Below are positions 7,620-52,916 of a stretch of 64,000 nt of DNA, piece by piece. The number at the start of each line of letters is the position of its first letter. Within the stretch, counting starts at the first letter, position 1. Below the pieces are notes generated by a model. The model ran no database searches and was not told the origin of the DNA. It was given only the letters and a program-made list of their open reading frames with translations. Source of the DNA: an uncultured virus (IMG/VR IMGVR_UViG_3300024303_000041). Its lineage: Duplodnaviria > Heunggongvirae > Uroviricota > Caudoviricetes. The translations under genes were made by a program, and so were the position numbers. The DNA lies in IMG/VR virus record IMGVR_UViG_3300024303_000041. One strand, 5' to 3'.

Positions 7620-7694
7620 GAGGGTATAGTATAGCTCGGCTAATGCGACTGGCTCCAGACCAGTATACCGTAGGTTCAAATCCTACTGCCCTCA
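7620..7694 (+). tRNA. trnW: tRNA-Trp(CCA), intronless, 3' CCA not fully encoded
   Basis: Cloverleaf: acceptor GAGGGTA/TGCCCTC, D arm GTAT/ATGC, anticodon arm ACTGG-CTCCAGA-CCAGT, T arm GTAGG-TTCAAAT-CCTAC, discriminator A. Confidence 0.92.
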
Positions 7695-7722
7695 CCTTAA
7701 ATTAGACGGAGGAAGTATATTT

Positions 7723-15990: not shown

Positions 15991-18900
15991 ATGGTTGAGT
16001 CTGAAATAATTTATACAAAATCCGGAGAGTATAGATACTCTGAAACTTTTAATCATCAAGTTAATCCTAATTTAACTAGAAAGTATAATAAATGGGAGAA
16101 TTTAGTTAATGCTGTTGGTAATGAAGGTAAATTATGGTCTAAAGCACCGTATACTCGTAAGAAAGTAACTAAAACAGTTAATGGTAAAAAAACATCTCAT
16201 TATGAATATACTACTCCTTGGACTTGTACTGCTCACGATTTCAGACTCGCAATTCCAGCAAGAGCATATGTGAAAAAAGTAACTGTTGAAATGCGAATGA
16301 AATGTAGTGAAGGATTAGAAGTTAAAGCACCGTCCGCATGGTTTATGGTGTATAACCAACAAGGAAAAGTTACTCAGCAAACCAAAGCCGGTAAAACTGG
16401 TTGGTATAATCTTAATTATCGTGTTTATCCAAATAAAAAATTAACTTCCACTGCAAAAACTTATGAGTACGTATTCCCAGAATCCGAATGGAAAAAAGCA
16501 AAGTATCCAACTAACCAATTAAATAAAACAGTTATGGGAGTAGATATTCATTTTGAAGAACCTACTAAAATGACTAAAGATACTCAATACATTGCGATTA
16601 ATTGGATTCGTATCAAAGTAGATTATACTCTTGAAGATCCGTATTTAATATGTAGTGAAAATTTTAGTGATGAGTCCGAACCTTATCCTGTTGATGTGGG
16701 AAATCAGTTTAAACTTAATTATGAGTTTGGTAATCGGACTTGTGTTAATGCGGGTTATAAAGAGATTCCTATTCAATTGCCTTTGGGTGTGTCGTTGGTG
16801 GATTATGGTAAAGTAGGCGACCCTACGGATTTTTATCCAGCTAGTGAAACATCTGAGGGTAGTGGAGATTATATTTGGAAGGTTAATTGTAAGTGTAATG
16901 CTAAATCAACTTTAATGCTCACCCTTCAAGCAGATACATTGGGTTCTAAAGTAACTACAGGGCTTCTTGATGAAATTCCAACTTATGCTTATGCTTATTC
17001 TAATGGTAGGAGCATGGACTTTGGAACAGAGTATATTACTAGTGGTGTAGTTCAAAAGGGACAAATTTCATGTTTTCAGTTTGTTGTGAATGCTTATAGT
17101 CAAGATGGAACTATCACTTATCAGGTTGATGTAGATGGTGAGAACCAATCTGACCCTAATGATTTGTCTGAAGTGTTTAGGGAAGCTTATCATAATCTTA
17201 ATGGTCAGGGTAATAATCTTGTTAGTTGGTCTATTGATGAGTTTGATTATGATGGTTTTCATGATTCTTTTGATGCTCCGATTGTTACTATTGATGAAGA
17301 TTTTACTAATAATAATCAGATTACATTTAATATTCCGGAAGATAAGTCCGTGCAAATTAAGTTTACCGGTTGCTTTATACCAGTTACTGTTGGGGAAAAT
17401 ACATTATATTTAACTAATAATGATACTGGTAATATAGAATCATATCAATATGTATCACATGAGGCAAAAACAACTGTTATGAACATTATACCAGTTGAAG
17501 AAATATGGTATGACCATTGGATTACAACACAAATGGAAACTGGAGCATTCATAATCCCATTCGTTACCAAAGCATCTGATAAGCTTATGGTTTGTGGGGA
17601 ATCCACTATGACTATGAAAATAGAAAAACCACAAGCATATATTGGGTGTGTTAGATTACCTAGAAGTCATTACGAACCTTCCAGTGATTTTAGTAATGAT
17701 ATAATTAAAAAACAGTATAAAAATAAGAAATATACTGGTAAATCCGGAGAGATTGATGAGGACATTGATTTTAAAATTAAGTTACCTCCTCGTGAATGGT
17801 CTACTTTACAAGGTTTATGTGAATTGGATAAGCCAGTTCCAGTTAATGCAGTCCCTACTGCCTTTGAAGGTGATGTATTAAACCATAGGGGTTGGGTTGA
17901 ACTTGGAGCAGTTAAAAATGTTAAAAAAACCAATCCATTATATTATAGTGGTGAATTAGAACTAGAATACTTAACCCATAACATTAATACAAGATTCCAA
18001 CTTGTTAAAGGAGTTGCAGTCAGCAAATACAACCCATCATTACTAGGAACATTATTAGATTATGTAATTGAAAGTGGTGATGAATTTGTAGATTATTCAC
18101 ACATCGACCCCGAAACTGGATTACAAGTGCCTAACGAAACCGGTTACTTTAATCTTGATACTGATGGGGTGTATATTTACGATGATGATGAGGAAACTGA
18201 AAATAATAAAAGAACTCTCATCACAATGGATAATAATCAGAAAATCATAATGAAAACTATTGATTCATTGAAAGAGAATACTAGAATTAATTTTGAATGG
18301 TTTTCATCAAAAATCGATGAAGATAGGGAAAATAATGTAACAAGAATAGTTCGTATCCGTGATAAATCCAATGATATTATACTTGAATACGAATACTATG
18401 ATTATTTCTTTGATTATGACGATGAATTATACAGTTGTAGTGTAAAATGTACAAAACTAGATAAATCAACTAACCAAATGGATACTGTAATCGAAGAAGA
18501 TGATTTGAACTTTGCAGTAGATTTAGAAGCATTGAATTTGAAAGTTGATGAGTTTGGTAATATTGTTCAAGAAGAAGAACCTGAAGATGAAGAAGAACCT
18601 GAAGAAACCGAACCAACTTATATTGACCCAGTTACTGGAGAAGTAGTGGAAATAGTTCAAGATGCTGAAGTTTACAATGATTATATGTACGGTTCTACAT
18701 TAACACTTGAATTAGCAGGTAATATTCTATCTATCAATGATAGTGGTTTCAATGGAAGAGAAGTGCATGAGGAAGGTATTGAATTAGAAAAAGGCGAATA
18801 TTACCTTGAAGTAGAGTTTATGAACAATAACATTGATAGTGATACTCCTGACGTTTACCATTTCTTTGATTTTGAAATCGAAGAACCAATAATCTTAACT

Positions 18901-19978
18901 GATTTCGATGATATGTACGCTAGTTTAATTGTTTCATCATATCCATTAATGAATAAAGTTTTTGCTTTCATGAGAGAATCTGAAGAGGGAACTCTCTATT
19001 ATTACCATTATGACGGTACACCTTACACCTATATACAAGAACCTTACTACATGTATGCACGTGGTGTTGATTTAGTAGCTGAGGGTCATAGTATATTTAA
19101 TCTTAATAACAGTTACACTACTTTCTACGTTCAAAATGGATTGGTGAGAATTGGTTTCAACCGATTAACTGGTGCAATATACTTAGCCAAATATGACTTA
19201 ATGGCAAGAGAATATATTAATGTTGCATCATTCTATGTTAAAGATCATACTGACTTTAATATTGGAGCATATTCTGATGATAAAATTGAAGTGTTGGTTA
19301 GTAAAACTGTATTCACTGTGTATCGGGGACACCCGTATGTAGTGGTAAAACATAAAAACGATAATATATATTTCACTACTAGTTGGAATAAAGTATTTGC
19401 GGATTCTGTTAATGATGTTAGTGATGATTATCCGGTTTTGTGGGATTTGTTGAATCATGAAAATTTATTATCTGAATGTGTTGGTGGTATAAATCTTAAG
19501 GCATCATGTTTGGATATATCTTCGGTGGATAATGATGATATTGGAACATTCCCTAATCTTGTTTTAACTCAAGTAACACAAGAACCTATTTATGATAGGG
19601 ATAATGTATTTTTCAGTGTTGATGGGTCTGTTACCGATGTTGATGAGGAAATTCCTATGGACGGGGTTTATAATGGTGCATTTGGAGAGTATTCTGTTGA
19701 ATGTGTAGTTGATAATAAAACTCCTAAAAGTATTACTTTATCTGGTGATTCAAAAATCATTCAAACTGGTGATACTGATGTTTTACGGGCTAAAGTTACT
19801 GATTATGAGTTTAAAGGTGTTCCTAATAGTGTAGTGTATTTCTNNNNNNNNNNNNNNNNNNNNNNNNNNNNNNNNNNNNNNNNNNNNNNNNNNNNNNNNN
19901 NNNNNNNNNNNNNNNNNNNNNNNNNNNNNNNNNNNNNNNNNNNGTGTAGTGTATTTCTATCAGGTGATTGATGAATGA
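15991..19978 (+). CDS. Large multidomain tail/baseplate protein with Ig-like domains; ends ...SVVYFYQVIDE* if the N gap is a simple overlap
   Basis: ~1300 aa beta-rich; 15-nt duplicate on both sides of the 100-N gap. Confidence 0.65.
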
Positions 19979-20004: not shown

Positions 20005-20253
20005 ATGAAGAGTAATAATAAGTATTTGCAAGAGATTAATAGGAATTTTGGTGGTGTTATGGAGATTAATAAGACCAATAACCATTATTTGAGGGAGATT
20101 GCTAAGAATACGGGTAGTGTTGATATTGCTAGTCATCATTCAGATAATTATTATTTGAAGAGGATTGCTTTGAATACTGCTGATATGGATATTAAGGAGC
20201 TTTTGCAGACTATTGCTGAGTTGCGTGAGGAAGTTAGTGATTTGGAAGGGTAG
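20005..20253 (+). CDS. Small protein with three NxYLxxIxxN repeats and a coiled coil
   Basis: SNNKYLQEINRN / TNNHYLREIAKN / SDNYYLKRIALN. Confidence 0.65.
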   Translation: MKSNNKYLQEINRNFGGVMEINKTNNHYLREIAKNTGSVDIASHHSDNYYLKRIALNTADMDIKELLQTIAELREEVSDLEG

Positions 20254-21093
20254 TTGGCTAATGATATTCATCTCTTCAGTTGTTGTAGAGATGTTACTCA
20301 AATTGGTGAATCATTAGGATTGTTTGCTTATTGTAAGCATGATGGTGAAGTTGAGGGCAATACAGTATATTTTTATGCCGTAGATGATACCCCAATCCCA
20401 TCTACAATAACTATTACAAGCGATAAGACAGTATTATCTTATAGCGATAGTGATAAAGCAACATTAACTATTACAATATTAGATGAAGATGATAATCCAG
20501 TACAATCTCAAAATGTTGTAATTAAGAATGGTTTAACAGTATTGGATACTGTACAGACTGGTAGTGATGGAACAGTAGAATATGAATACTCTGCACAAGG
20601 ATTAGGTGATGTTACATTAACTATTGAATGTGGGGAAGTGTCTGAAACAATTACTATTGAAGATTGTTTATATTACCACCCAAATGCTATTACTGATAAT
20701 CAAGAATTGTCTATTTCAAATTTCCCAACAAACTTTAAAGTAACATATACATCATTATGGTTTAAAACAGGCGATAACAAAAAATGTTGTTTGGAAATTG
20801 GTGAAGATGCCAATAATAATATGTTCTTTGGGGCATTGGGAGATAGTACCAGTAGTGGGGGCATATATAAGAGAATCAATGGAACAATGAGAGTCATTGA
20901 TGAAAGATGTGGAATTAATCCATCAAATATTTATGTGAATCATGAATTTAGATACTCTGATGGAGAAGTGTATTACAAAGGTGGATATGCTAATCCCAAT
21001 ACTGGAACTTATGAATATACTATTCGTGATTATATTTCAACCAATATTGGAACTGGTTCACAAATGACTGAATTAAAAATTAAACCATTATAG
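20254..21093 (+). CDS. Adhesin-like tail protein (Ig-like domain plus distinct C-terminal beta domain)
   Basis: Big_1-like segment (TITITSDK...QTGSDGTVEY), SETITIEDC junction. Confidence 0.7.
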   Translation: MANDIHLFSCCRDVTQIGESLGLFAYCKHDGEVEGNTVYFYAVDDTPIPSTITITSDKTVLSYSDSDKATLTITILDEDDNPVQSQNVVIKNGLTVLDTVQTGSDGTVEYEYSAQGLGDVTLTIECGEVSETITIEDCLYYHPNAITDNQELSISNFPTNFKVTYTSLWFKTGDNKKCCLEIGEDANNNMFFGALGDSTSSGGIYKRINGTMRVIDERCGINPSNIYVNHEFRYSDGEVYYKGGYANPNTGTYEYTIRDYISTNIGTGSQMTELKIKPL

Positions 21094-21112: not shown

Positions 21113-21719
21113 ATGACAAATTATAGATATTTAGGATATGGAACAACAAATTCCAATGGAGTAGCACATTTAGATCACGACCCACAAGGCAACCCAATCA
21201 ATGGGTATACTGGAACTGGTGCAGGTGAAATCGATGTTCTTGCATCAACCGACAATCCGATAACTTCCAGCAGTATTGTTTCAGAACCATACCCTGTTTT
21301 CGACTGCCCAGTATACGATGGGGATAACACACCGACAAGTATAAGTTGGAGTAAAACAAATAATGCAGTAGTAACTGATGAGGTTGTAAGTTTGATTGCA
21401 AGTGTATTAAATACGAATAATAATCCTTGTATTAACATTCCAGTAGTGTTTACGCAAGGAAATACTGTTTTGGGAACTGCTTATACTGATTGTAATGGTG
21501 ATGCGACTATGACTTATACTTGGGCAGATTCTGACATTTTTAATGTTACTGCACAAGTCGGTCAAAGTTTGAGTGAAGATATTACGATGTTCGTAAAAGA
21601 TAAGNNNNNNNNNNNNNNNNNNNNNNNNNNNNNNNNNNNNNNNNNNNNNNNNNNNNNNNNNNNNNNNNNNNNNNNNNNNNNNNNNNNNNNNNNNNNNNNN
21701 NNNNGTAAAAGATAAGTAG
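21113..21719 (+). CDS. Adhesin-like Ig-domain protein; ends FVKDK* if the second N gap is an overlap
   Basis: TTNSNGVA and YTDCNGDA Ig motifs; 12-nt duplicate flanks the gap. Confidence 0.65.
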
Positions 21720-21757
21720 TATTACGATTTAACACGAAAAGTAATAAATGTGATAAT

Positions 21758-22015
21758 ATGACAAATCAAATCAAACTCACAAAAAAAATAGAACAAATTG
21801 ATGAGGACAATAAAGTCGAAATGCTTGAAATCAGAGCAGAAACCGACTACCCATCAACTGAAATTAGTTTTTATATAAATGACAACCACCTTGCAACTAC
21901 TATGACTAACTCTGATGGTGTTGCAATTGCAGGAATATCCTATCAATCGAATCAAGATTATACATTTAGTATAATGGTAAAAGAAGAAAAAGTAGAGGTT
22001 GAATACTCTACTTAA
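21758..22015 (+). CDS. Single Ig-like domain protein
   Basis: ISFYIND...TNSDGVA motif. Confidence 0.55.
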   Translation: MTNQIKLTKKIEQIDEDNKVEMLEIRAETDYPSTEISFYINDNHLATTMTNSDGVAIAGISYQSNQDYTFSIMVKEEKVEVEYST

Positions 22016-23157
22016 AGGGTAATTTTGTTATCTGACACGAAGATGTTAATGTGTATGTGGTATTCTTCGTGTTTTTCTTCTTTATCTTCAATGAAAATCA
22101 TTACATTTTCCATTGCAGACATATAAATCTCTTTTAACTCTTTTGGATTTGTTTTAATGTATGTTTCATGTACTTTGTCTTTACTGCGACCTTGCAAGGC
22201 ATCAATATACTCTTCAGTAAGATTAATGTTACTTGCATGGAATTTTCGCATAGTATGGCTTCGGAAAAACCTATATCTACCTTTGAATCCGAAATCCATT
22301 CGGTCATTGACTTTCTGAAATTCTTGTGTTAAAGTAGTGTTTGTGATTGGAAAGATTTTGTCTGATGGTTTTAAATCCTCACGAGTCAGTAAATAACGAA
22401 TAATGTACTCACTTGCCTCTGGTGAGCAGAAAGTATAATAATACTTGTCTGTTTTAATCCTACGAAGATATAGTGTTGGCACAATATTCTTTTTCAGACT
22501 TAACTGATTTAAAACTTCTTTTATACTTCCATCACTATGATAATCAGTTGTTCCATCAATGAATTGTTTAACAGTCAGACTTAAAGTTTCTGCTTTTGCA
22601 GAACCACTTGAACTCATAAAAAGTATTAATGCTTGAAACCACAAAGGAATCTGACCCTCTGTAATGACTTTATGAATATGTGTTTTATTCGGCAAGTCTA
22701 AGTAACTGGTCTGATAAGGTTGGTCTAACTGCAACTGTTTTAATTGTGGGATTTCAACTTCAAAATGTCGATAGAATGCTAAAATCTTATTCATATAAGT
22801 TTTAATGGTATTCCTTGAAGTTGTCTGATTTAATAAATCGGTTCGCCAGTTTATCAATCTTCGTTTCAATCTCCTTTCTTTCAATGGTATTTTTCTATGT
22901 TCATCAATCATTGCTTCAATCAACAAATCACGGATAGTCTTACCATGAAATCTTGTATATGATTTTAAAGCAACACTATAATTAACTACTGTTTGCTCTT
23001 TGATGTTTTTTTCTTTACAGAATTGAGCAAAAACATCTTCGGGTATTCCAAGGTCATCAGGTTCGATTACTGCATGAAGACTGTTCTCAATTGTAATATC
23101 ACAGTCATCTTCATGTGTTTTTAATATTTTAGTATTTTCAATCTCATAAGTATCCAT
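22012..23157 (-). CDS. Tyrosine recombinase embedded in tail-adhesin locus
   Basis: HTMRKFH (HxxR), LQGR...HETY catalytic Tyr, RIKT, YTFCSPEA. Confidence 0.88.
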   Translation of the reverse strand: MDTYEIENTKILKTHEDDCDITIENSLHAVIEPDDLGIPEDVFAQFCKEKNIKEQTVVNYSVALKSYTRFHGKTIRDLLIEAMIDEHRKIPLKERRLKRRLINWRTDLLNQTTSRNTIKTYMNKILAFYRHFEVEIPQLKQLQLDQPYQTSYLDLPNKTHIHKVITEGQIPLWFQALILFMSSSGSAKAETLSLTVKQFIDGTTDYHSDGSIKEVLNQLSLKKNIVPTLYLRRIKTDKYYYTFCSPEASEYIIRYLLTREDLKPSDKIFPITNTTLTQEFQKVNDRMDFGFKGRYRFFRSHTMRKFHASNINLTEEYIDALQGRSKDKVHETYIKTNPKELKEIYMSAMENVMIFIEDKEEKHEEYHIHINIFVSDNKITL

Positions 23158-23227
23158 TATATCACCTATGTTTGTGTGAAGATATTTAGAGATAGTAACA
23201 TATCAAATTTATGATTTGAATCAAATA

Positions 23228-23255
23228 ACAACTATAAAAAAGGAGCGATAGTTGT
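23228..23255. promoter_or_regulatory. Inverted repeat ACAACTAT-N12-ATAGTTGT in divergent intergenic region
   Basis: 8-bp perfect arms between recombinase start and the next tail gene. Confidence 0.35.
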
Positions 23256-23389
23256 AACTTTAAAAAATCTTAACAAAAAAGAAAATTTAATGATTTAATT
23301 ATATATTCTCAGAAAAATTATTATTTTTTCTTTTTTTATACTCATTCTTTTTTTAATAACAACAAACAACATTTTTGAGGTGGATATAA

Positions 23390-24499
23390 TTGTCATATAT
23401 TGTAAAAGACAAATATCACAAGCTAATTATTAATTTGACAACAAAATTACAAAACTATTCCAATATCTACATCGATGCGTATGCAAAAGGCAGAAACAGC
23501 CCATACTCACTAGTACCATCAAGCATTATAGATAACGAAGATGGAACAAAAACATTAATATTTGAACTTCGTAACAAGAACTATCCTATAGGAACTGAAT
23601 TTACAAGTTTCAAAGCAGTGTTAGGTGGAAGTCATAAGCTTGTTGAATTAAACGAAGGAGTATCTATTCTTGTTGATGGTAATGAGTCATTAGTTAAAGA
23701 AGCAACTATTGTTGATGATGAAGGAGAAGTTAGAAGGGACAGTCAAGGAAATATAATATGGACTGACAACCTTAAAAGAGATGCCTTCGCAGTAGAGTTC
23801 GATGATAACGAACCACACACCGTTCAAGCAGTCTACAAAGGAAACAATGAAATCGGTGTTGCGGTCAGTGATAAATTCTACATCAAACCACAACAACATG
23901 AAGATGACGGACAACAAGGTCATTTCACACTAACTTCCAATGTTCCCAAAACATTCAAATACATGGATACCCCGAATTGGACTTGGACTCTGAAAAAAGG
24001 CGGAACACCAGTGCCTAACCGTACTATTGAAAAAGTATTACCAACATCAACTTACTCCGCCGACACTAATTCCAAAGGTCAAGTTCATCAAGGATTACCA
24101 ACTTCACTTGCAGTGTTAGCAAAGTGGGTTCCAGGGACATATACTATTATTGCTAATTTTTATCATTATGAAGATCCAACTGACCCGTCTAATAAGATAC
24201 TCTTGCAATGTAAAAACAAAATTACAATTGTGAAAAATACTCCAACTTTAAAATATGTTCCAAGTGAAGGAAAAGGTAAAAAATTTGCTTTGGCATTAAG
24301 AGATCCGCAGAAACAACCTATGCCTAATAAGACTATTAATTTTACAGTGAATGGTAAGAAGTATAGTAAGAAAACTAATTCTAAAGGGAATATTTGGTTT
24401 AAAACTAATGTTAAAGGACGGTATAAAGGTTCTGCTACTTTTGCGGGTAATAAGTATTATAATAAGAAAACAATTAAATTTGACCAGGTTATAAGGTGA
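23390..24499 (+). CDS. Adhesin-like protein with Methanobrevibacter-type Ig repeats
   Basis: C-terminal LRDPQKQPMPNKTINFTVNGKKYSKKTNSKG...ATFAGNKYY repeat. Confidence 0.75.
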   Translation: MSYIVKDKYHKLIINLTTKLQNYSNIYIDAYAKGRNSPYSLVPSSIIDNEDGTKTLIFELRNKNYPIGTEFTSFKAVLGGSHKLVELNEGVSILVDGNESLVKEATIVDDEGEVRRDSQGNIIWTDNLKRDAFAVEFDDNEPHTVQAVYKGNNEIGVAVSDKFYIKPQQHEDDGQQGHFTLTSNVPKTFKYMDTPNWTWTLKKGGTPVPNRTIEKVLPTSTYSADTNSKGQVHQGLPTSLAVLAKWVPGTYTIIANFYHYEDPTDPSNKILLQCKNKITIVKNTPTLKYVPSEGKGKKFALALRDPQKQPMPNKTINFTVNGKKYSKKTNSKGNIWFKTNVKGRYKGSATFAGNKYYNKKTIKFDQVIR

Positions 24500-26301
24500 T
24501 TATTGTGCCATATATTACTACTGAATGGGATTATGGGTTGAAAACAGAAGTTTTTGTAGTTAAAGGTGATAAAGGGTATACTCATACTACTGATACTTTG
24601 CTTCAAGAAGTAAATTCACGTGGAACTTCCCAGATTGAATATTTTACTGCTGATTTTAGTGTAGATGTTAAAAGGGATATATCTGCATCTAAAGTGGTTA
24701 TTTATGATAATGGGGAAGCTATTCCAGTGTTTGTTAATAATAATCAAGTTGAAATGATTGATTGGGAACAGAATAATCAACCGAAGGTATTTACTGTAAG
24801 ATTGGGTTATGATGTGGAGCATAAAATACATGCGAAATATCTTGGTAATAAAAAAGGATTGCCAAGTAAATCACAGACTATTGAATTATTTGAAAAATTA
24901 CCAGTATTATATTCTACTGAAATTGTAAGAACAACCGATACTTCTCAATTTGATGTAGGGCAACCTATTGAGTTTCCTATTAGTTTCAACACAAATAAGA
25001 TATTTTCTGCTAGTGCTACTAAAACCATTGGCGTATATGTTGATGAAACACATGTGTCTGATTATAATATAATTATATCAGCTGGTGAAACTGATGGTGT
25101 AGGAACAATTGTGTTAAATGAAGAATTAACTGCGGGTGTTCATCAAATAGAACTTCGTTTTGAAGGTGATGCTGAAAACGAATTGTTTTATTTACCCTTC
25201 CAGATAAGTGTCGGTTACAAATTAACACTTGTGTCTAATAGTCCTATTATTACTGTAACTCCAACACCAATAGAAGATTATAATGTAGTTCAGTATAAAG
25301 TAACTGATTATTTGAATGCACCAGTATCTGAAGCCACAATTAAATTGAAATCAGTGGGTAATGGTGAAACTGCTGGTGGTGTAGAATATGGGTCTGCGGT
25401 TACTGATAGTGATGGGATAGCAAATTTTAATAGTATTAATAGGTTGCCTGAAATATTTAGGGCAGTATGGGAAAAAATCCCTTTTGACCCGTTAGGTGCT
25501 GTAGGGCAAAATAATGAATTAAATTATTATTCAGATAATTGTAGGTTACCAGTATTACAAGTAAATTCATTTAATTTTGGAGCAGAAAAAAATATTGCTA
25601 CCGGTTACTCCGCAAAAGCAGTGGTTACTTTAACTGATTATGAATGGGTGTATAATCAAAAATCATCAGTGGAAGGAGTTCCAGTATTGTTTTCAACAAA
25701 TTATGGTGTGTCAAGTAAGCATTATACTAATGGTGAAGGTGTGGCAACAATTCCATTTGAAGGTGCAAATCGTGGGGAAATTGTTTTGTCTGCAAATGTT
25801 AGTTCATCATTGGCTAAATATGCTTATGTTAATGATTACACCCAATATTGGAGTTCTCAAACTGGTTCTATCAATAAAGAGTATAGAATATTGTCTACTA
25901 ATTTCTATGAATTAAATACTGGATTTAGGTTTGAAGTCAGAGCGCCTAATCAAATGTCTGCTATTGGATTAGGTGAAGGTGAACTTTACGAAGGTAGTTG
26001 GGAACTTGGTTTTAAAGTAGTTAATGCGTCATCTAATATTCAATTAATTGCTGGTGATTGGTATATTGGTGAAAGGGAAACATTGGAAAACTTAGTTATT
26101 TCCAATTCAATTTCTTTGAAGTATAATGATGAAGTAATAGTGAGGTATAATCGGGGTAATGTCTTATTTGAAGTAGAACTACCTAATAATGTCAAAGTTA
26201 CTCAAGATGGTCTTAGTAGAGGATTACCATGTCTTGGAATCGTCGCTACAACTGCGAAATCTCAATTAACAATAGATAATGTAAGGTTTAGGAGGTTATA
26301 A
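24496..26301 (+). CDS. Multi-Ig-domain tail/adhesin protein
   Basis: Several Ig-like units (HKIHAKYLGN, HQIELRFEGD, TDSDGIA, TNGEGVA) and a lectin-like C-terminus ending IDNVRF. Confidence 0.7.
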   Translation: MIIVPYITTEWDYGLKTEVFVVKGDKGYTHTTDTLLQEVNSRGTSQIEYFTADFSVDVKRDISASKVVIYDNGEAIPVFVNNNQVEMIDWEQNNQPKVFTVRLGYDVEHKIHAKYLGNKKGLPSKSQTIELFEKLPVLYSTEIVRTTDTSQFDVGQPIEFPISFNTNKIFSASATKTIGVYVDETHVSDYNIIISAGETDGVGTIVLNEELTAGVHQIELRFEGDAENELFYLPFQISVGYKLTLVSNSPIITVTPTPIEDYNVVQYKVTDYLNAPVSEATIKLKSVGNGETAGGVEYGSAVTDSDGIANFNSINRLPEIFRAVWEKIPFDPLGAVGQNNELNYYSDNCRLPVLQVNSFNFGAEKNIATGYSAKAVVTLTDYEWVYNQKSSVEGVPVLFSTNYGVSSKHYTNGEGVATIPFEGANRGEIVLSANVSSSLAKYAYVNDYTQYWSSQTGSINKEYRILSTNFYELNTGFRFEVRAPNQMSAIGLGEGELYEGSWELGFKVVNASSNIQLIAGDWYIGERETLENLVISNSISLKYNDEVIVRYNRGNVLFEVELPNNVKVTQDGLSRGLPCLGIVATTAKSQLTIDNVRFRRL

Positions 26302-29900: not shown

Positions 29901-30462
29901 ATTTACTGCAACGGAAGGAGATGACAACAATATCCTTGACTGGAGTAACATATCATGCAGTCCAGTGTCTATTTTACGAAACACTAGTGTATGTGTTTAC
30001 AAAGATGCCAAAGGCAAATACCAATATGTAGATACTCGGGACGTAGATAGTATGCTTCAATATGGTGAACAGACTACATTAATCACTGAAAGCGAAGTTA
30101 GTGGAAGTAAACAAGCATATTTCCTTGCACGAAACAATAAAGAGTTTAATCCCGAATTTGATTACACATATACCATAATCGTGCCTTATGCTCCAAATCT
30201 ACAATTAAAAGACTTGGTAGAGGTAATAGCAAACAATAAATTCTTAAACGATATAAAACCAGTAGAATCGTTACAAATCAAATATAATAATGGAACTAAA
30301 CCAACGATACAAACTACCTTAGGTTTAGGTGAGATAGAACCATTTTTAAGAATAAAACAAGACATGCAGAAACTAAGAACTGCTAATAAGAAGAAATCAA
30401 CTCACTTCAGCACAAGTGCAAGTCCAGTTGATGACGAAGAAATTTATGAGTGGGATCAATAG
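26953..30462 (+). CDS. Baseplate hub/tail-associated lysin with Cys-rich insert and transglutaminase-like peptidase
   Basis: Hub-like VTFNCADRL and C-terminal beta barrel; CPHC/CIYC/CNSCCADFC cluster; GDCFG...HHSV...WVDFPY triad. Confidence 0.7.
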   Translation: MIARHNRNEWADHKKETIRPSYEKIKLEIFSFEHKLTKKFYPAKSNIKGTNLKKVNHRSLKCLESKDKETSFIMEFDFNIKEEGEYRIDILYENKNAKDYIGEYDLSLRSKKSSKLYANTANVMSYVDQLHKLNAKVKKVKEAINKAKAEYKQEDEKKNKNKTVVASKKKVVAKYESQLASLNKKVEKYESKLEKTHKMAGTDLSFDGELNITKRKTLFHSLNELGKYRLSLELPVNCYFIGLMVRKLKTYTGNNLDSAGTNLMFTDATITKSGEVKPAEASFELGFNDGFLCDLTRTGLYFDYGDEINIYVKENSLESNDKMVIRFGGYLSTIQKSADKKTVTFNCADRLIDGEAKFILDSLLIQKGTTSESEMEYNKPINFNNYGQALKYLCDIHEITLKSNIKKNFLVAGEKYSTGLALKFGKKKDIKNPKKVKAKNCTVTFHNKFITVHNGKSGTKQQSIMLYNAKEYSKTPRPLKKVNSKGETTVNHLSFHMIYGLGDPAKSSEKTSTDQTSSDGSSGNYGKCGQSADKKTIMSIAKPSSGRFEGLNGNTFYKVIFKNECPHCHEHDLRYDSGTSKTNCIYCSGYQDSKRSWGDISEGEVTCNSCCADFCGATGWEKDGNFSTRLTTVVKPVKSSKAEQNKLLDGQMSGAGAVKVTADNIFKEITKEAFKYRYVLGAEGQTWAEMKKIGYGDCFGFSDLIFKMMKKFGVKCKIVEYAATGGANNHHSVMYMNKKGKWVDFPYRELGWNTRYNNQLNNTAGSANGSIVAINNAGKSIDQAKGTISSTSTTTTKVTTTVGYDKNNPYQAYIELTYSTERAWKAKKKKVYLTFTQKAGTNNDISGLPSYWINNAQRQVSVDLKGWFEDNEPKKSIYLHSIRFVTPPIPTTAETNGETNKKEWYSFNKSTKDYASCKMDLFQIVFDDKLIINPTDLQSGGKTVNSVMEEIVNASGYRAHINYGKHRCDDKIIFSVDNQTKPLFTATEGDDNNILDWSNISCSPVSILRNTSVCVYKDAKGKYQYVDTRDVDSMLQYGEQTTLITESEVSGSKQAYFLARNNKEFNPEFDYTYTIIVPYAPNLQLKDLVEVIANNKFLNDIKPVESLQIKYNNGTKPTIQTTLGLGEIEPFLRIKQDMQKLRTANKKKSTHFSTSASPVDDEEIYEWDQ

Positions 30463-32800
30463 TATGTACGATGATTATCAATTAAGAAAAGAAGTGGATA
30501 GGTTTAAGAATATTGTAGATAGTATTCAGACTATTCTTGAAACAGAATATGGTGTTACTGAGGAGATTGATATTAAAAGTTTGTTAAGTCAGTTTTATGA
30601 TAAGGCGGATATTGATGAGTTGGTTAAACCATATTTTAAAAAAGAAGATGTTGATGCTCGGTTAATAGAAAATTATAATGAGTTACTGGGTACTGTTGAA
30701 AATTATTATACTTACTCTGATGATAGTTACACACTATTCCGTGGTGATTGTTGGACTATAAATAATAATTTTGAAGCTAGCGCAGCGATTGTTAGTGAAA
30801 CTACTTCGGATTTTACTGTTGTTGGAACATTCCGTACTGAAAAAGATTTAGTGGGGGTTTATTGGAACTCTAAAGATTTGATTTCACATGATTATATTTC
30901 GTATGGTTCTAAATATGATTATACTGGTGTTGTTCTTGATTTTGATTATGAAATGAATGGTTGTATGGATTTTGCAAGTGGAACTGTGAGTATTACAATT
31001 CGTACTAATTCTAACCAAACATTTTATTTAACTATGAGTAGATTTATTGAAAACAATCATGTGCATATTGATTTTAATAATTTAACACTACTTGCGGGGA
31101 ATACATATATTGATAGTGATGGAACTCCCGTTGTTGTTGAAGAAGAAACTCCATTAGATGTAACTGATATTAGTTCTATAATGCTTGTTTTAGTTCCTAC
31201 TGTTTATGATGGTGATAACCAGTATGTGATTATGTCAAATGATTATTTTTATTGTGCTGTGTCTGATATTACAGTTATTAATGGTAAAATCTGTAATGAG
31301 CATGTTCCTTTACCATCTCACCAATATCGTCTTTGTGAGGGTTATGATGATTTTTATGATTTAAATCCGTTTAGAGTTGTTAAAGAAATGTGGAAGTTAG
31401 GTTATACTAACTGGGTTGATTTGTATATTGGTGCATCACATTTCTATGAAAAATCAGGTACTGTTGGGGATATTGTTGATGTTTCGGGTTTTAATCATAC
31501 ACGTACTGAAAAAATGGTTTTAGACCCGACTACTGCAATAAATAATGCTTTTGAAGCATGGTTAAATTGTTATTCAAAGACTTTGAAGGAGTATGGTGTT
31601 GATAATTTAATTATTAGTGTTTCTATGGAAAACTTACAATGCCCTACATCTTGGAGGCAGAAAACAAGTGATAATAAATATGCTGAAACAGAATGGGTTC
31701 CATCAACATTTTTTTACAGTCCATGTAACGATGATGCTGTTACATATATGCAAGTGGTGAGTCAAACATGTTTAGATATTGTTACTGCTAATGGATTGCA
31801 AGCAATACTTCAAATGGGTGAAGCTTGGTGGTGGTGGAACGAATGGTATCACCCTACTGATAGTGGTGGAAATCCTATTGATGTTGAACATTGGCAACCT
31901 CCATGTTTTTATGATGATGCTACTAACGCAAAATATCTTCAAGAGTTTGGTGCTGCTCTTCCAGTGTATGATTCTACCGCAGATACTTTTGATGAGGGAG
32001 TAATTGCTTGGTTAAATCAACAACTTGTAGCATACAGTGATTCGTTAAGGGAAATAGTTAAAAGCGATAGATATGCTGATGGAATATACATGGCTTTGTT
32101 CTTCCCACCATCTGTTTTAGACACTGAGAGAGTACCTTTAATGATGCAGAAAGTAAACTACATAACTGATGCTTATAATCCTTCAAAATTAGATATACTT
32201 CAATTAGAAGATTATGACTGGGTTACTGGTGAAAGTATACATCATAACGAAATATATCAAATAGGATTAGATTTAGGATTCACCTATGACCGATTACATT
32301 ACTACGGTGGATTTGTACAATATCCTAAAGATGCAGTTAAATACTGGAGGTTGATTAAAAATGCTATGAACACTGCTATTAAAACCGGATTTGGGGAAGT
32401 GTTTGTATGGGCAGGAACCCAAATAAGGCGGGATAATAAAATTATAGGACATGATGATTACGAATTGCTTCAAAAAATAATCAACTCATTGAAAGAAACA
32501 GCTACTCAAAATGTATGGAAGAAAATCGATTCCAACATTCCAGGTGCAATTATTCATGTGAATGAGTCGGCAAGATTAGTCATGTTTTATTATACTGTGG
32601 CTTCATTTGAATTTATTGATTCATCAACGTATTATACTGTTGGAACAATACCTAAGAAATATGCTCCTTCACTTCCAGTGTTGTTATCGTTTTCATCGAT
32701 ATATCAGTGGGGTGATGTGAGTAAAACGGGTCAGGTGAGAGTTGCAAGGAATCCTGCCGGAACTGTGAGAGTACGTGCAAGTGCTATGTGGCATTATTAG
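30416..32800 (+). CDS. Tail protein with glycoside-hydrolase-like TIM-barrel domain
   Basis: QMGEAWWWW and LQLEDYDWV motifs recalled from phage tail TIM-barrel proteins; fibre-like C-terminus (GTIPKKYAP). Confidence 0.55.
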   Translation: MQVQLMTKKFMSGINSMYDDYQLRKEVDRFKNIVDSIQTILETEYGVTEEIDIKSLLSQFYDKADIDELVKPYFKKEDVDARLIENYNELLGTVENYYTYSDDSYTLFRGDCWTINNNFEASAAIVSETTSDFTVVGTFRTEKDLVGVYWNSKDLISHDYISYGSKYDYTGVVLDFDYEMNGCMDFASGTVSITIRTNSNQTFYLTMSRFIENNHVHIDFNNLTLLAGNTYIDSDGTPVVVEEETPLDVTDISSIMLVLVPTVYDGDNQYVIMSNDYFYCAVSDITVINGKICNEHVPLPSHQYRLCEGYDDFYDLNPFRVVKEMWKLGYTNWVDLYIGASHFYEKSGTVGDIVDVSGFNHTRTEKMVLDPTTAINNAFEAWLNCYSKTLKEYGVDNLIISVSMENLQCPTSWRQKTSDNKYAETEWVPSTFFYSPCNDDAVTYMQVVSQTCLDIVTANGLQAILQMGEAWWWWNEWYHPTDSGGNPIDVEHWQPPCFYDDATNAKYLQEFGAALPVYDSTADTFDEGVIAWLNQQLVAYSDSLREIVKSDRYADGIYMALFFPPSVLDTERVPLMMQKVNYITDAYNPSKLDILQLEDYDWVTGESIHHNEIYQIGLDLGFTYDRLHYYGGFVQYPKDAVKYWRLIKNAMNTAIKTGFGEVFVWAGTQIRRDNKIIGHDDYELLQKIINSLKETATQNVWKKIDSNIPGAIIHVNESARLVMFYYTVASFEFIDSSTYYTVGTIPKKYAPSLPVLLSFSSIYQWGDVSKTGQVRVARNPAGTVRVRASAMWHY

Positions 32801-45465: not shown

Positions 45466-45759
45466 TTACACCTTCTTATCTAATAATCTTTCACCTTTAC
45501 TGGTTAATTTCCATAATTCATCTAAAAATTCAAAAATAACTTCTTTACGACTATCATCGTACATATTTACTGCACAAGTTTTCATAAAATCAAGATTGCC
45601 TTCAGCAATAATCGCTGGTAAAAACATAAGTGTTCTTTCATCAGTGTAAATATCCACTGAACGGTCGTTCAGTGCTTTTGTATTGTCTTTAGCAACCCTA
45701 CTTCCGAACTCTTGTAACAAATCGTCTGGTGCAGTAATTAATCGTAATAACTCATTCAT
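45466..45759 (-). CDS. Hypothetical protein
   Basis: Coupled ORF. Confidence 0.55.
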   Translation of the reverse strand: MNELLRLITAPDDLLQEFGSRVAKDNTKALNDRSVDIYTDERTLMFLPAIIAEGNLDFMKTCAVNMYDDSRKEVIFEFLDELWKLTSKGERLLDKKV

Positions 45760-46424
45760 TCTAATCCCTCATCAACAATACTGGTTTCAATAACTTCATC
45801 GTCGAATGAAACATTATTCTCACTATCATACTCTACTGGCATTGCCTCTTCGGCTTGCACACCATCAATCTTTGCGAAACTTTTGAAAACTCTAGTTTCA
45901 GCAACTTTAATAATCATGTCTGCCGGATAAGTTTTCCAAGCATTTTTACCAGTGTTATAGTATTTCATTTCTGCAAAGTAACTGAACATTCGACCATCAA
46001 TTGTTTCTAATACACAATAAGCACCAGTAATTGCTCCACGTTCATTATGAGAATACTTATGTGTAATATCAACTAATTTACCCATTTTCTTCTCAATTTC
46101 AAACTCATCATTCTTACAAACATAATCTGAATGATGAGCTTTGTATGTTGGTTCTCTCATAGCAATTTTACGGAACCCATCACGTCCGGACATTATTTGT
46201 CCTTTGTCTTGGAATTTCGCATAATAAATTTGACCTAAGAAAGGGTCAAGGTCATATTTATTCGCAACTGTTAAGAACATAAATAGTTCACTGTCTGTAG
46301 CATCTTTTGCTACAGTATTTTTGATAGCTTCCACCATCTCTGAACTGTAAACACCAATCACATCACCATGACTGTCTTTAACTTCAATGGGTGCTATTTC
46401 TTCTTTTTTCTTAATTTGAGCCAT
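45756..46424 (-). CDS. bet: RecT/Bet-family single-strand annealing protein
   Basis: ATDSELFMFL...YDLDPFLGQIY...GRDGFRKIA...WKTYPADMIIKVAE. Confidence 0.9.
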   Translation of the reverse strand: MAQIKKKEEIAPIEVKDSHGDVIGVYSSEMVEAIKNTVAKDATDSELFMFLTVANKYDLDPFLGQIYYAKFQDKGQIMSGRDGFRKIAMREPTYKAHHSDYVCKNDEFEIEKKMGKLVDITHKYSHNERGAITGAYCVLETIDGRMFSYFAEMKYYNTGKNAWKTYPADMIIKVAETRVFKSFAKIDGVQAEEAMPVEYDSENNVSFDDEVIETSIVDEGLE

Positions 46425-47665: not shown

Positions 47666-48910
47666 TTATCGTTCAACACCTAATAAATCTTCTAATCTAT
47701 TCTGATGTGCTTTTGTTTCTTTTATCAACTCCTCTAACTCAACCATCTTTGTAGATTGAGCTTCAAGCTCTTTCCTGTAAAGCTTATTCTCTTGTTTTAA
47801 TTTTCGATAATCGCTTTTGCTAACCTCTTCCATTGAAGAGAATAACATTAAATCATCAACACATTTCACATATTTTTTCCTTAACTGCTCTTCTTGGTTA
47901 AAGAAATATGCTCTATGAGTTTTATCCATACTCCTACCTTGCATAGCATCAATCTCTTCAATTGAAAAACCTTTATCAGCATTCATAAGAACACTTGCTT
48001 GGTATTTCCGGAGCATATGGCACCTTAATTTAACTGTATCACCAACTTTATCAAATTTCAACTTATTAGAAATTTTTCTAAATGATGCTGAAAGATGACC
48101 ATCAGAAATGTCAAATAATTTATGAGTACGTTCCAACCTATGAGGTTGTCTTTGCAGTTGATCATGTAACCTCTGTTTTTTACCAGGGTTAGTTTCTGAC
48201 TCATACATATTCTGTAATATTTCATATTCGATACGGATTTCCGCATCTCTACCTATGAGATATTGCACTATGTGTTCGGTTGCTTCAGGGCTACAGAATG
48301 TGATGAAGTTCTTTTTTGTTTTTTGTCTTTCATCACGAAAAACCGGTATAACATTCTTGACTTGTTTTAAGTCTTGTAACGCATTGATTACTTTCCGGTT
48401 TGTTTTAATGTATCCGTCGCAACCGTTGATGAAGTCAGCAACTGTAACTTTTAGCATGTCTGACTTGGATAATCCACTACTGATGCCAAATAAGATGATA
48501 CATTTCACTACATTGTTGGCTTCGTAGTAACTATCTATTAATTCTGACTTTGTTGGTAAGTCTTTATAGGACATTTGGTAAGATTTTTTTACTTGTTTAC
48601 TGTCATAACGAGGTAGAGGTTGTAGTTCTATCTCAAAATGACGGTAGATTGCTTTTATGTCATTCAAGTATATTTTAACACTTGATTCAACATATCTTGC
48701 ATATAAGTAATTACGGAAGTTCATTAACCGTTCTTTGATTTTACGGTTCTTCCATCTTACATGTTCTTCCTCTTCTAAATCCGCTTCCTCAATTAATGAG
48801 TCAAGAGTCATGTCATTTAACTCTTCGTACAGCTTCACACTAGAGAGGTAATGCCTTTTTGTTGATGCTGATGAACCACGATCATTGAAAAATTGTTCGA
48901 TTTTTTTCAT
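47666..48910 (-). CDS. Tyrosine recombinase/integrase
   Basis: HMLRKYQ, MQGR...HRAY, RQKT, TFCSPEA; C-terminal coiled coil. Confidence 0.88.
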   Translation of the reverse strand: MKKIEQFFNDRGSSASTKRHYLSSVKLYEELNDMTLDSLIEEADLEEEEHVRWKNRKIKERLMNFRNYLYARYVESSVKIYLNDIKAIYRHFEIELQPLPRYDSKQVKKSYQMSYKDLPTKSELIDSYYEANNVVKCIILFGISSGLSKSDMLKVTVADFINGCDGYIKTNRKVINALQDLKQVKNVIPVFRDERQKTKKNFITFCSPEATEHIVQYLIGRDAEIRIEYEILQNMYESETNPGKKQRLHDQLQRQPHRLERTHKLFDISDGHLSASFRKISNKLKFDKVGDTVKLRCHMLRKYQASVLMNADKGFSIEEIDAMQGRSMDKTHRAYFFNQEEQLRKKYVKCVDDLMLFSSMEEVSKSDYRKLKQENKLYRKELEAQSTKMVELEELIKETKAHQNRLEDLLGVER

Positions 48911-52654: not shown

Positions 52655-52916
52655 TTTACTTACCATAAACTTAAAACAAAAATTTACCTACCATATACTT
52701 AAACTAATTTTTTACCTACCATAAACTTAAAAATCTAGGTACCAAATGTCTTAAAATTTAGGTACCATATACTTTACCTACCATATACTTAGGTACGAAC
52801 GACTTAGGTACGAAAAAACTTACCTACCAACGTCTTAAAAATTTTTTACCTACCATAAACTTAGGTACCATATACTTAGAAAAAAAATCTGAAAATTTAC
52901 CTACCATATACTTAGA
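52655..52916 (+). repeat. Non-coding array of about 12 degenerate (TTACC/TAGG)TACCATAWACTTA repeats
   Basis: TTACCTACCATATACTTA, TTACCTACCATAAACTTA, TAGGTACCATATACTT variants, all same orientation. Confidence 0.9.

What the first reader, a model, noticed from the sequence alone, without database searches (positions are those of the whole stretch)
22012..23157. Second tyrosine recombinase embedded antisense within the tail-adhesin locus
Seen: a full recombinase splits the late operon among at least five Ig-adhesin genes, while a paralogue sits with the regulators at 47.7 kb. Known: recombinases beside tail-fibre genes drive host-range switching in bacterial phages and shufflons. I could not find inverted silent cassettes or clear inverted crossover sites, so excision or exchange of cassettes fits better than classical inversion. 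Candidate archaeal receptor-switching system.
Basis: partly seen in the sequence, partly recalled or inferred. Interest (0 to 1): 0.7.

Follow-up and report, generated by a model that had tools for sequence, protein, structure and literature searches.

The report
Methanogen-virus adhesin shufflon, reduced form
A virus of gut methane-making archaea carries a DNA-rearranging enzyme beside a tail gene whose sugar-binding tip is a swappable cassette, a stripped-down version of large cassette-shuffling arrays found in related viruses that probably let them switch which cells they stick to.

Summary
The antisense tyrosine recombinase (22012-23157) is real. The 100-N gap at 21605-21704 hides the key feature. 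An identical record (L001) fills it with a 439-bp cassette encoding a CBM4-like tip of the 21113 adhesin, flanked by two direct 12-bp sites. Two possibly-source runs break exactly at these sites and show the cassette at half depth; the second path was not displayed. Related Methanobacteriaceae viruses carry 4-34 such cassettes in both orientations behind the same kind of 9-12-bp site: true shufflons. Eleven adhesin homologues switch to a different C-terminus at this site. Of 30 clade relatives with long flanks, 16 sit beside inverted adhesin, hsdS or pglX cassettes. An unrelated provirus keeps the same site + small ORF + recombinase module (79% identity, dN/dS 0.11). Here no inverted site remains, so only cassette loss or exchange is possible. 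Enzyme activity is not shown: the box-I Arg is shifted and is Lys, and viral RecT could cause the deletions. Archaeal tail switching is known (phiCh1). Multi-cassette methanogen-virus shufflons were not found in the papers I could search.

The parts
22012..23157 (-). Tyrosine recombinase, invertase-like clade of the Methanobacteriales integrase family; 36-aa acidic N-terminal extension; box-I basic residue shifted by one and Lys (K188)
   Evidence: dN/dS 0.11 against the L206 orthologue
21113..21604 (+). Constant N-terminal part (164 aa, Ig Big_1) of the adhesin; the expression site ends at the crossover site
   Evidence: Big_1 3e-8; 11 homologues 35-99% identical before the site, 4-36% after
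21593..21604 (+). Crossover site copy 1 (GTAAAAGATAAG, read V-K-D-K)
   Evidence: a unitig ends on its last base in X7 and X2; identical 12-mer in L206, same core in L019, L021, L209, L211
21605..21704 (+). Assembly gap standing for a 439-bp variable cassette (451-bp unit with one site): 144-aa CBM4/CBM16-like beta-sandwich tip
   Evidence: L001/G001 fill it; model pLDDT 93.5; Foldseek top hit CelK CBM4, E 3.4e-7, TM 0.73; half-depth unitig
21705..21716 (+). Crossover site copy 2, direct orientation, followed in frame by TAG (deletion between the copies would end the adhesin at 164 aa)
   Evidence: a unitig begins on its first base
21758..22015 (+). 85-aa ORF, marker of this cassette type; possibly a lone Ig domain
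   Evidence: follows the array in L006, L011, L019, L021, L040, L206, L207, L209; 8 of 314 Methanobacteriaceae genomes match, 7 of them with this cassette type; ESM lead 0.85
20005..21093 (+). Second adhesin (Ig + 'D-type' variable domain 20599-21090) split by an in-frame TAG at 20251-20253
   Evidence: P0136, 362 aa, uninterrupted, 91% identical; D-type HMM
19829..19958 (+). Second assembly gap (19844-19943) between 15-bp direct repeats: presence or absence of one 44-aa repeat unit at the end of the tail protein (1334 vs 1290 aa). The repeat is unrelated to the 12-bp site
   Evidence: (junction unitig at 0.59-0.65 of flank depth; strain X16 holds about 116 extra letters)
15991..19971 (+). Large tail protein (1290/1334 aa) upstream of the adhesin cluster
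23390..26301 (+). Two further Ig-domain late genes downstream of the recombinase; no cassette site found
32516..32764 (+). Single 'Q-type' C-terminal domain of ORF 30416, homologous to cassettes of a second shufflon type in relatives; no array here
47666..48910 (-). Paralogous tyrosine recombinase, integrase-type; probably the lysogeny integrase (inferred)
45756..46424 (-). RecT/Bet annealase, the rival cause of short-repeat deletions
   Evidence: PF03837 3e-28; TIGR01913 2e-17

Best explanation
The gene is the site-specific recombinase of a tail-adhesin shufflon of a Methanobrevibacter-type virus. The adhesin at 21113 has a constant Ig stalk and a ~145-aa glycan-binding tip joined at a 12-bp crossover site that is read as V-K-D-K. 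In relatives, many silent tips lie behind such sites in both orientations, so inversion fuses a new tip to the stalk (architecture shown; inversion inferred). In this lineage the inverted half has been lost and only direct sites remain. Recombination can therefore delete the tip (giving a 164-aa stalk) or exchange tips between genomes, but cannot invert (geometry shown; outcome inferred). The sampled population holds the cassette on about half of the paths (shown as a graph branch); the other path is most simply the deletion (inferred).
For: Cassette between direct sites fills the gap. Unitigs of X7 and X2 break on the first and last base of the 12-mer; cassette depth 99.7 vs 194-196 and 34.8 vs 73-75. 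12 of 92 homologues carry the MFVKD junction: the query plus 11 with different tips, pairwise at most 39%. Two tips occur both fused and standalone (P0103/P0093; P0005, P0241/P0238, P0239). Arrays of 4-34 cassettes in both orientations in 10 loci. The site is fixed at DNA level: 11 of 11 L006 cassettes start with GTG against 2 of 82 other Val codons. A tip expressed in L207 is silent and inverted in L181 (91.5%), with homology ending at the site. 16 of 30 clade relatives with at least 3 kb on both flanks sit by inverted adhesin (8), hsdS (4) or pglX (4) cassettes. In 11 of 11 loci with both paralogue types this type is the nearer one, and three abut the array at 4-5 bp. L206 keeps site + small ORF + antisense recombinase at 81% DNA identity in a different backbone; dN/dS 0.11.
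Against: No activity assay. The canonical box-I Arg is absent in 155 of 157 family sequences; the next column is K in 103 and R in 46, and K here. The second path at the cassette was not displayed. X7 and X2 may be the window's own source, and contig depth is not a share of genomes. Exact 12-bp direct repeats within 600 bp are common here (8 distinct in 21 kb; two matches at up to 1 mismatch arise in 24 of 100 shuffles). A second bubble of the same kind sits at an unrelated 15-bp repeat, and the virus encodes RecT. 12 of 30 clade relatives show no cassette locus nearby. The two largest arrays lie on 92-kb and 57-kb contigs with no family match, and in two viruses the clade gene is about 35 kb from the array. 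The window protein is a long branch without supported placement beside array-linked subclades (quick tree). In L206 the first cassette is out of frame with its stalk, which suggests decay.
Confidence: 0.68

Rival explanations
1. Relic. The module descends from a shufflon, but present-day variation here (tip loss, 44-aa repeat loss, tip differences between strains) comes from RecT or microhomology recombination at short repeats. The recombinase is kept for another target or is decaying slowly.
For: RecT/Bet in the window; a second bubble at an unrelated 15-bp repeat with similar frequency; no inverted site; TAG in the neighbouring adhesin; out-of-frame cassette and degenerate terminal site in L206.
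Against: dN/dS 0.11; no change in the catalytic motifs among the 11 full-length cluster variants; tips switch at the same codons in 11 homologues; the orthologous gene stays next to the site in an unrelated provirus.
Confidence: 0.2
2. The second path is another cassette, not a deletion: two tip alleles coexist at about 50:50, as swapped cassettes or two co-occurring strains.
For: Close strains have other tips at this site, and one (P0103) is bounded by the same direct sites; the break points fit this too.
Against: No protein with the identical stalk and another tip from JGI assemblies in the search or cluster look-up; the 11.4-kb neighbouring unitig has no other branch. This variant is compatible with the best explanation and concerns only the identity of the second path.
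Confidence: 0.25
3. The gene is a second integrase or dimer resolvase (Xer/Cre-like) whose position among tail genes is incidental.
For: Family includes annotated integrases of MSTV1, vir080, vir075 and psiM100; 12 of 30 clade members have no cassette neighbour.
Against: Those integrases are only 26-38% identical and align with the other (paralogue) type; repeated independent adjacency to three unrelated kinds of inverted cassettes.
Confidence: 0.08
4. Both gaps are assembly artefacts of low coverage or mis-scaffolding.
For: 100-N gaps with overlapping ends are typical scaffolder output (own knowledge).
Against: Depth is 75-200 and drops to half exactly over the cassette in two runs; both tail-protein forms are on record (1334 aa on 10 contigs, 1290 aa on 4).
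Confidence: 0.04

Closest known systems
R64/IncI shufflon (Rci tyrosine recombinase, sfx sites, PilV adhesin)
   Same: Constant N-terminus fused to alternative C-terminal adhesin tips; adjacent tyrosine recombinase; sites with a conserved core and right side and a variable left side (PMC11852207, passages seen; consensus).
   Different: Archaeal virus tail gene, not a plasmid pilus. Conserved stretch 9-12 bp against 7+12 bp. Up to 34 cassettes against seven sites. Arrays are single-cassette segments around one tail-to-tail pair. The enzyme is of the Methanobacteriales integrase family; no Rci comparison was run. In the window no inverted site exists.
phiCh1 ORF34/ORF35(Int1)/ORF36 tail-fibre inversion; HCTV-5 homologue
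   Same: Archaeal tailed virus; recombinase among tail genes swaps C-terminal, galactose-binding-type domains (PMC4284463 and PMC8651126, passages seen).
   Different: Two convergent full genes with the recombinase inside the inverted segment, in haloarchaea. Here silent cassette arrays in methanogen viruses with the recombinase outside, and a direct-only form in this virus.
p15B Min multiple inversion, Mu Gin, P1 Cin (recalled, no call)
   Same: Tail-fibre C-termini switched at short crossover sites; Min uses several cassettes.
   Different: Serine invertases in bacteria, few cassettes.
Invertible hsdS and BREX pglX loci of bacteria
   Same: The same recombinase clade sits in inverted hsdS and pglX loci of Methanobacteriaceae; bacterial cases in PMC9881135 (passages seen).
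   Different: That survey states it did not cover viruses or archaea; here the loci are archaeal and share an enzyme clade with viral adhesin arrays.
MSTV1 / psiM100-type integrases
   Same: Same family (36% to MSTV1; shifted box-I motif shared, with Arg).
   Different: A different subclade; Lys in place of that Arg; shorter C-terminus; located at cassette loci rather than at genome ends.

Membership tests
Tyrosine recombinase superfamily | Homology to integrases; H-x-x-R and catalytic Tyr | tested here: met
   phrog_1 3e-9; H301, R304, Y333 invariant in 8 of 8; 36% to MSTV1 integrase
Tyrosine recombinase superfamily | Box-I catalytic Arg (G-x-R) and box-III His/Trp | tested here: inconclusive
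   Canonical column is Ala; next column K here, K/R in 149 of 157, R in the MSTV1 integrase; box III is Q-G-R. The structure model was too poor to place the residue (pLDDT 48.6)
Shufflon (R64-type multiple inversion system) | Constant 5' gene part fused to variable 3' cassettes at a conserved site | tested here: met
Shufflon (R64-type multiple inversion system) | Crossover sites in both orientations with silent cassettes | tested here: not met
   Window/L001: two direct sites, one cassette. Met in 10 relative arrays
Shufflon (R64-type multiple inversion system) | Linked tyrosine recombinase | tested here: met
   295 bp from site 2 to the recombinase stop; same module in L206
Shufflon (R64-type multiple inversion system) | Isomers in one population produced by the recombinase | tested here: inconclusive
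   Half-depth branch at the site; second path not displayed; no long reads or assay
Shufflon (R64-type multiple inversion system) | Rci-family enzyme with the extra C-terminal domain | not tested
   No NCBIfam hit, no PDB sequence hit under E 0.1; no Rci sequence was compared
phiCh1-type invertible tail-fibre module | Two convergent tail-fibre genes with the recombinase between inverted repeats | tested here: not met
   All flanking genes on +; no inverted copy of the site
Integron-like cassette array | Direct sites, circular excised cassettes, hairpin attC sites | tested here: inconclusive
   Direct sites met; the 499-bp cassette unitig is unbroken, so no abundant circle or tandem junction; hairpins not tested

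The most novel reading that the evidence does not exclude
One Methanobacteriaceae tyrosine-recombinase clade with Lys at the box-I position is a general shuffling enzyme. It drives viral glycan-binding tip shufflons of up to 34 cassettes and host hsdS and pglX inversions. In this virus lineage it has switched from inversion to direct-site excision and exchange, so that tips are traded between viruses in an integron-like way and half the population toggles its tip on or off.
Probability: 0.3. Interest if true: 0.88.

Novelty: new variant of a known kind. Interest (0 to 1): 0.74.

Why it matters
Receptors and host range of rumen and gut methanogen viruses are largely unknown. These arrays supply over a hundred natural CBM-like tips on a common stalk with a defined junction, so tip-to-cell-wall-glycan specificity becomes directly testable. 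They also extend multi-cassette shufflons, and invertible hsdS and pglX loci, to methanogenic archaea. They further define a recombinase clade with 9-12-bp virus-specific sites and an unusual active-site residue, of use for methanogen genetics. A practical point: such loci hide in assembly gaps.

Tried and rejected
Generic repeat search of 17-28 kb gave only chance-level repeats and missed the 12-mer. No whole genome is held for the window; G001 is only the 38-kb identical record. AlphaFold of the recombinase from 8 sequences was unusable, and the PDB sequence search found nothing. The sigma-70 scan was at chance level (29 vs 26.9) and is not suited to archaea. The 164-aa protein on 6 JGI contigs cannot prove the deletion, because contig-end partial genes give the same sequence. 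Strain runs X16 and X21 give almost no cover over window ~21290-23400 (X16 contigs stop at both edges) and no contig joins across, so this is no evidence of absence. Viral-contig scans with the adhesin, tail protein, flank patterns and the P0093 tip found only identical records or nothing; L166/L168 end at the first gap and may not be independent. V- and Q-type cassettes have no match among 50,697 GenBank phage records. My first idea that gap 1 was a false gap was wrong. L121 and L123, two assemblies of one virus, show the same cassette order, so no isomers were seen there. The careful tree did not finish; only the quick tree was used. Four look-ups of earlier findings gave nothing relevant.

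Full report
Observation. The window is a tailed virus of Methanobacteriales: capsid, tail tube and a weak pseudomurein-binding repeat in the lysin, and relatives of the recombinase come mostly from Methanobrevibacter and other Methanobacteriaceae assemblies. ORF 22012-23157(-) is an intact 381-aa tyrosine recombinase. It is 30% identical to the paralogue at 47666 and 36% to the MSTV1 integrase. Four flanking genes have sub-threshold Ig hits; the 85-aa ORF is Ig-like only as a lead. ORFs 20005 and 20254 are one gene split by a TAG, uninterrupted in P0136.

The hidden cassette. The window has two 100-N gaps. L001/G001, identical elsewhere, fills the gap at 21605-21704 with 439 bp lying between two direct copies of GTAAAAGATAAG. 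This completes a 308-aa adhesin: Ig stalk, then V-K-D-K, then a 144-aa tip. A model from 40 such tips (pLDDT 93.5) matches CBM4/CBM16 beta-sandwiches (E 3.4e-7, TM 0.73). The second copy is followed in frame by TAG. No inverted copy exists in the window. The repeat alone is not beyond chance (8 distinct exact 12-bp repeats within 600 bp in 21 kb); its position is what matters.

Population data. I laid 4 of 24 listed runs. In X7 and X2, which may be the window's source, unitigs end on the last base of copy 1 and start on the first base of copy 2. The cassette unitig has 0.51 and 0.47 of flank depth. In X7 the unexplained depth on both sides (92 and 102) matches an undisplayed second path; in X2 it fits less well (16 and 36). 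Whether that path is a deletion or another cassette was not shown. Gap 1 is a similar branch (0.65 and 0.59). It is presence or absence of one 44-aa repeat unit between 15-bp repeats unrelated to the site: 1334 aa on 10 contigs against 1290 aa on 4, with about 116 extra letters in strain X16. That second branch, together with a RecT gene, is the main argument for a recombinase-independent cause.

Switching at the site across strains. 12 of 92 adhesin homologues examined carry the MFVKD junction: the query and 11 others. Those 11 are 35-99% identical to ours over the 95 residues before it (10 of them 66% or more) and 4-36% after it; tips are pairwise at most 39% alike. Two tips occur both fused to the stalk and as standalone ORFs that start at the site.

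Relatives. Scans gave 23 viral, 63 genome and 78 metagenome loci (the last kept the best 80 of 148), with 157 distinct recombinases. HMMs built from cassettes seen by eye found head-to-head arrays of three unrelated cassette types, which I call V, Q and D; a genome search added more. Ten V arrays have 4-34 sites in both orientations. Sites are virus-specific and fixed at DNA level: all 11 L006 cassettes begin with GTG against 2 of 82 other Val codons, and Q arrays have their own cores. Each of the 10 V arrays has exactly one variant site, always at the tail-to-tail strand flip. In 7 of 8 arrays printed, an inverted site lies just before the homologue of the 85-aa ORF. The tip expressed in L207 is silent and inverted in L181 (91.5% DNA identity), with homology ending at the site.

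Linkage. I labelled sequences by the motif at the catalytic Tyr (my own rule). Of 32 clade rows with at least 3 kb on both flanks I dropped the query's own record and one mis-sorted 25% row. Of the remaining 30, 8 lie within 4.5 kb of adhesin arrays, 4 by inverted hsdS pieces, 4 by inverted pglX pieces, 2 by single such genes and 12 by none (identities by PADLOC). Of 27 paralogue-type rows, 6 are near an array. In all 11 loci holding both types, the clade gene is the nearer one, at 4-5 bp in L010, L107 and L109. These loci are related and not independent. Against strict linkage: the contigs with the 34- and 18-site arrays hold no family match, and two large viruses keep the clade gene about 35 kb from the array. 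The quick tree leaves our protein as a long branch in the clade.

The direct-only lineage. L206, a provirus with a different (baseplate-type, my reading of the ORFs) backbone, has the orthologue (79% aa), the small ORF (87%) and two direct cassettes with the identical 12-mer; DNA homology of 81% starts at the terminal site. dN/dS is 0.11. Its terminal site is degenerate and its first cassette is out of frame with the stalk. I infer that an ancestral deletion removed the inverted half, leaving loss or exchange as the only outcomes.

Active site. The canonical box-I Arg is missing in 155 of 157 sequences; the next column is Lys in 103 and Arg in 46. The MSTV1 integrase has the shifted Arg, and excision of that provirus is reported and attributed to it (PMC12134362, passages). 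Ours has Lys, so activity is plausible but unshown.

Literature. Passages seen: PMC8651126, PMC4284463, PMC8371274, PMC11375127 (abstract and passages), PMC12134362, PMC9881135 (it excludes viruses and archaea), PMC11852207. phiCh1 tail-fibre inversion is the known archaeal precedent. Nine searches found no paper describing methanogen-virus shufflons; I judged most hits from listings only. Medvedeva et al. 2023 was not held, so prior mention there or in its supplements cannot be excluded. p15B Min, Gin and Cin are recalled. No clade member (50% or more) is among 50,697 GenBank phage records.

Verdict. Real feature; a reduced, direct-site form of a multi-cassette adhesin shufflon that appears undescribed in methanogen viruses. 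New variant of a known kind; interest 0.74; best explanation 0.68.

Noticed in passing
L207 2030-17057 (G181:C71); L209 7762-16002: Invertible arrays of 34 and 18 CBM-like tip cassettes in Methanobacteriaceae assemblies, far larger than the seven-site R64 shufflon; no family recombinase on the same contig.
   Followed up: partly
L025, L042, L049, L088, L103, L106, L111, L114, L117, L140: Same recombinase clade between inverted, partial hsdS copies of Type I R-M systems; L088 has two such recombinases and 7 hsdS pieces. Candidate archaeal phase-variable methylation.
   Followed up: partly
L027, L093, L097, L101, L102, L112: Same clade beside one full and several partial, inverted BREX pglX copies.
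   Followed up: partly
L002-L004, L010, L107, L109 (Q type); L003, L161, L163, L165 (D type): Two further unrelated cassette types form head-to-head arrays; L002 and L003 carry both. A distinct recombinase subclade directly follows D-type adhesins (L154, L161-L165).
   Followed up: partly
10 V-type arrays: Exactly one variant site (V-K-E) per array, always at the tail-to-tail strand flip; unexplained.
   Followed up: partly
window 20251-20253: In-frame TAG splits a 362-aa adhesin (Gln in P0136); the split form is on many contigs, so nonsense allele or read-through is open.
   Followed up: partly
window ~21287 (residue ~58 of ORF 21113): A second switch point: 57 of 92 homologues share the first ~58 residues and diverge after it (median 24%), so the Ig + tip module is itself an exchangeable block.
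   Followed up: partly
window 23050-23157: 36-aa acidic N-terminal extension found only in this recombinase lineage (window, L206).
   Followed up: no
window 7620-7696: tRNA-Trp(CCA) between the tail tube gene and the next late gene.
   Followed up: no
window 52655-52910: Cluster of short direct repeats in a gene-free stretch, possibly a replication origin.
   Followed up: no
window 30416-32800: Tail protein with an NCTSP TIM-barrel (7e-62) ending in a single Q-type cassette domain.
   Followed up: no
L171/L172 (G006:C1 ~514-538 kb): Related provirus in a complete Methanobrevibacter genome with homologous tail genes; no recombinase-sized antisense ORF seen among them in the gene map.
   Followed up: no
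L129: Large inverted duplication with two identical recombinase copies; assembly artefact or invertible segment.
   Followed up: no
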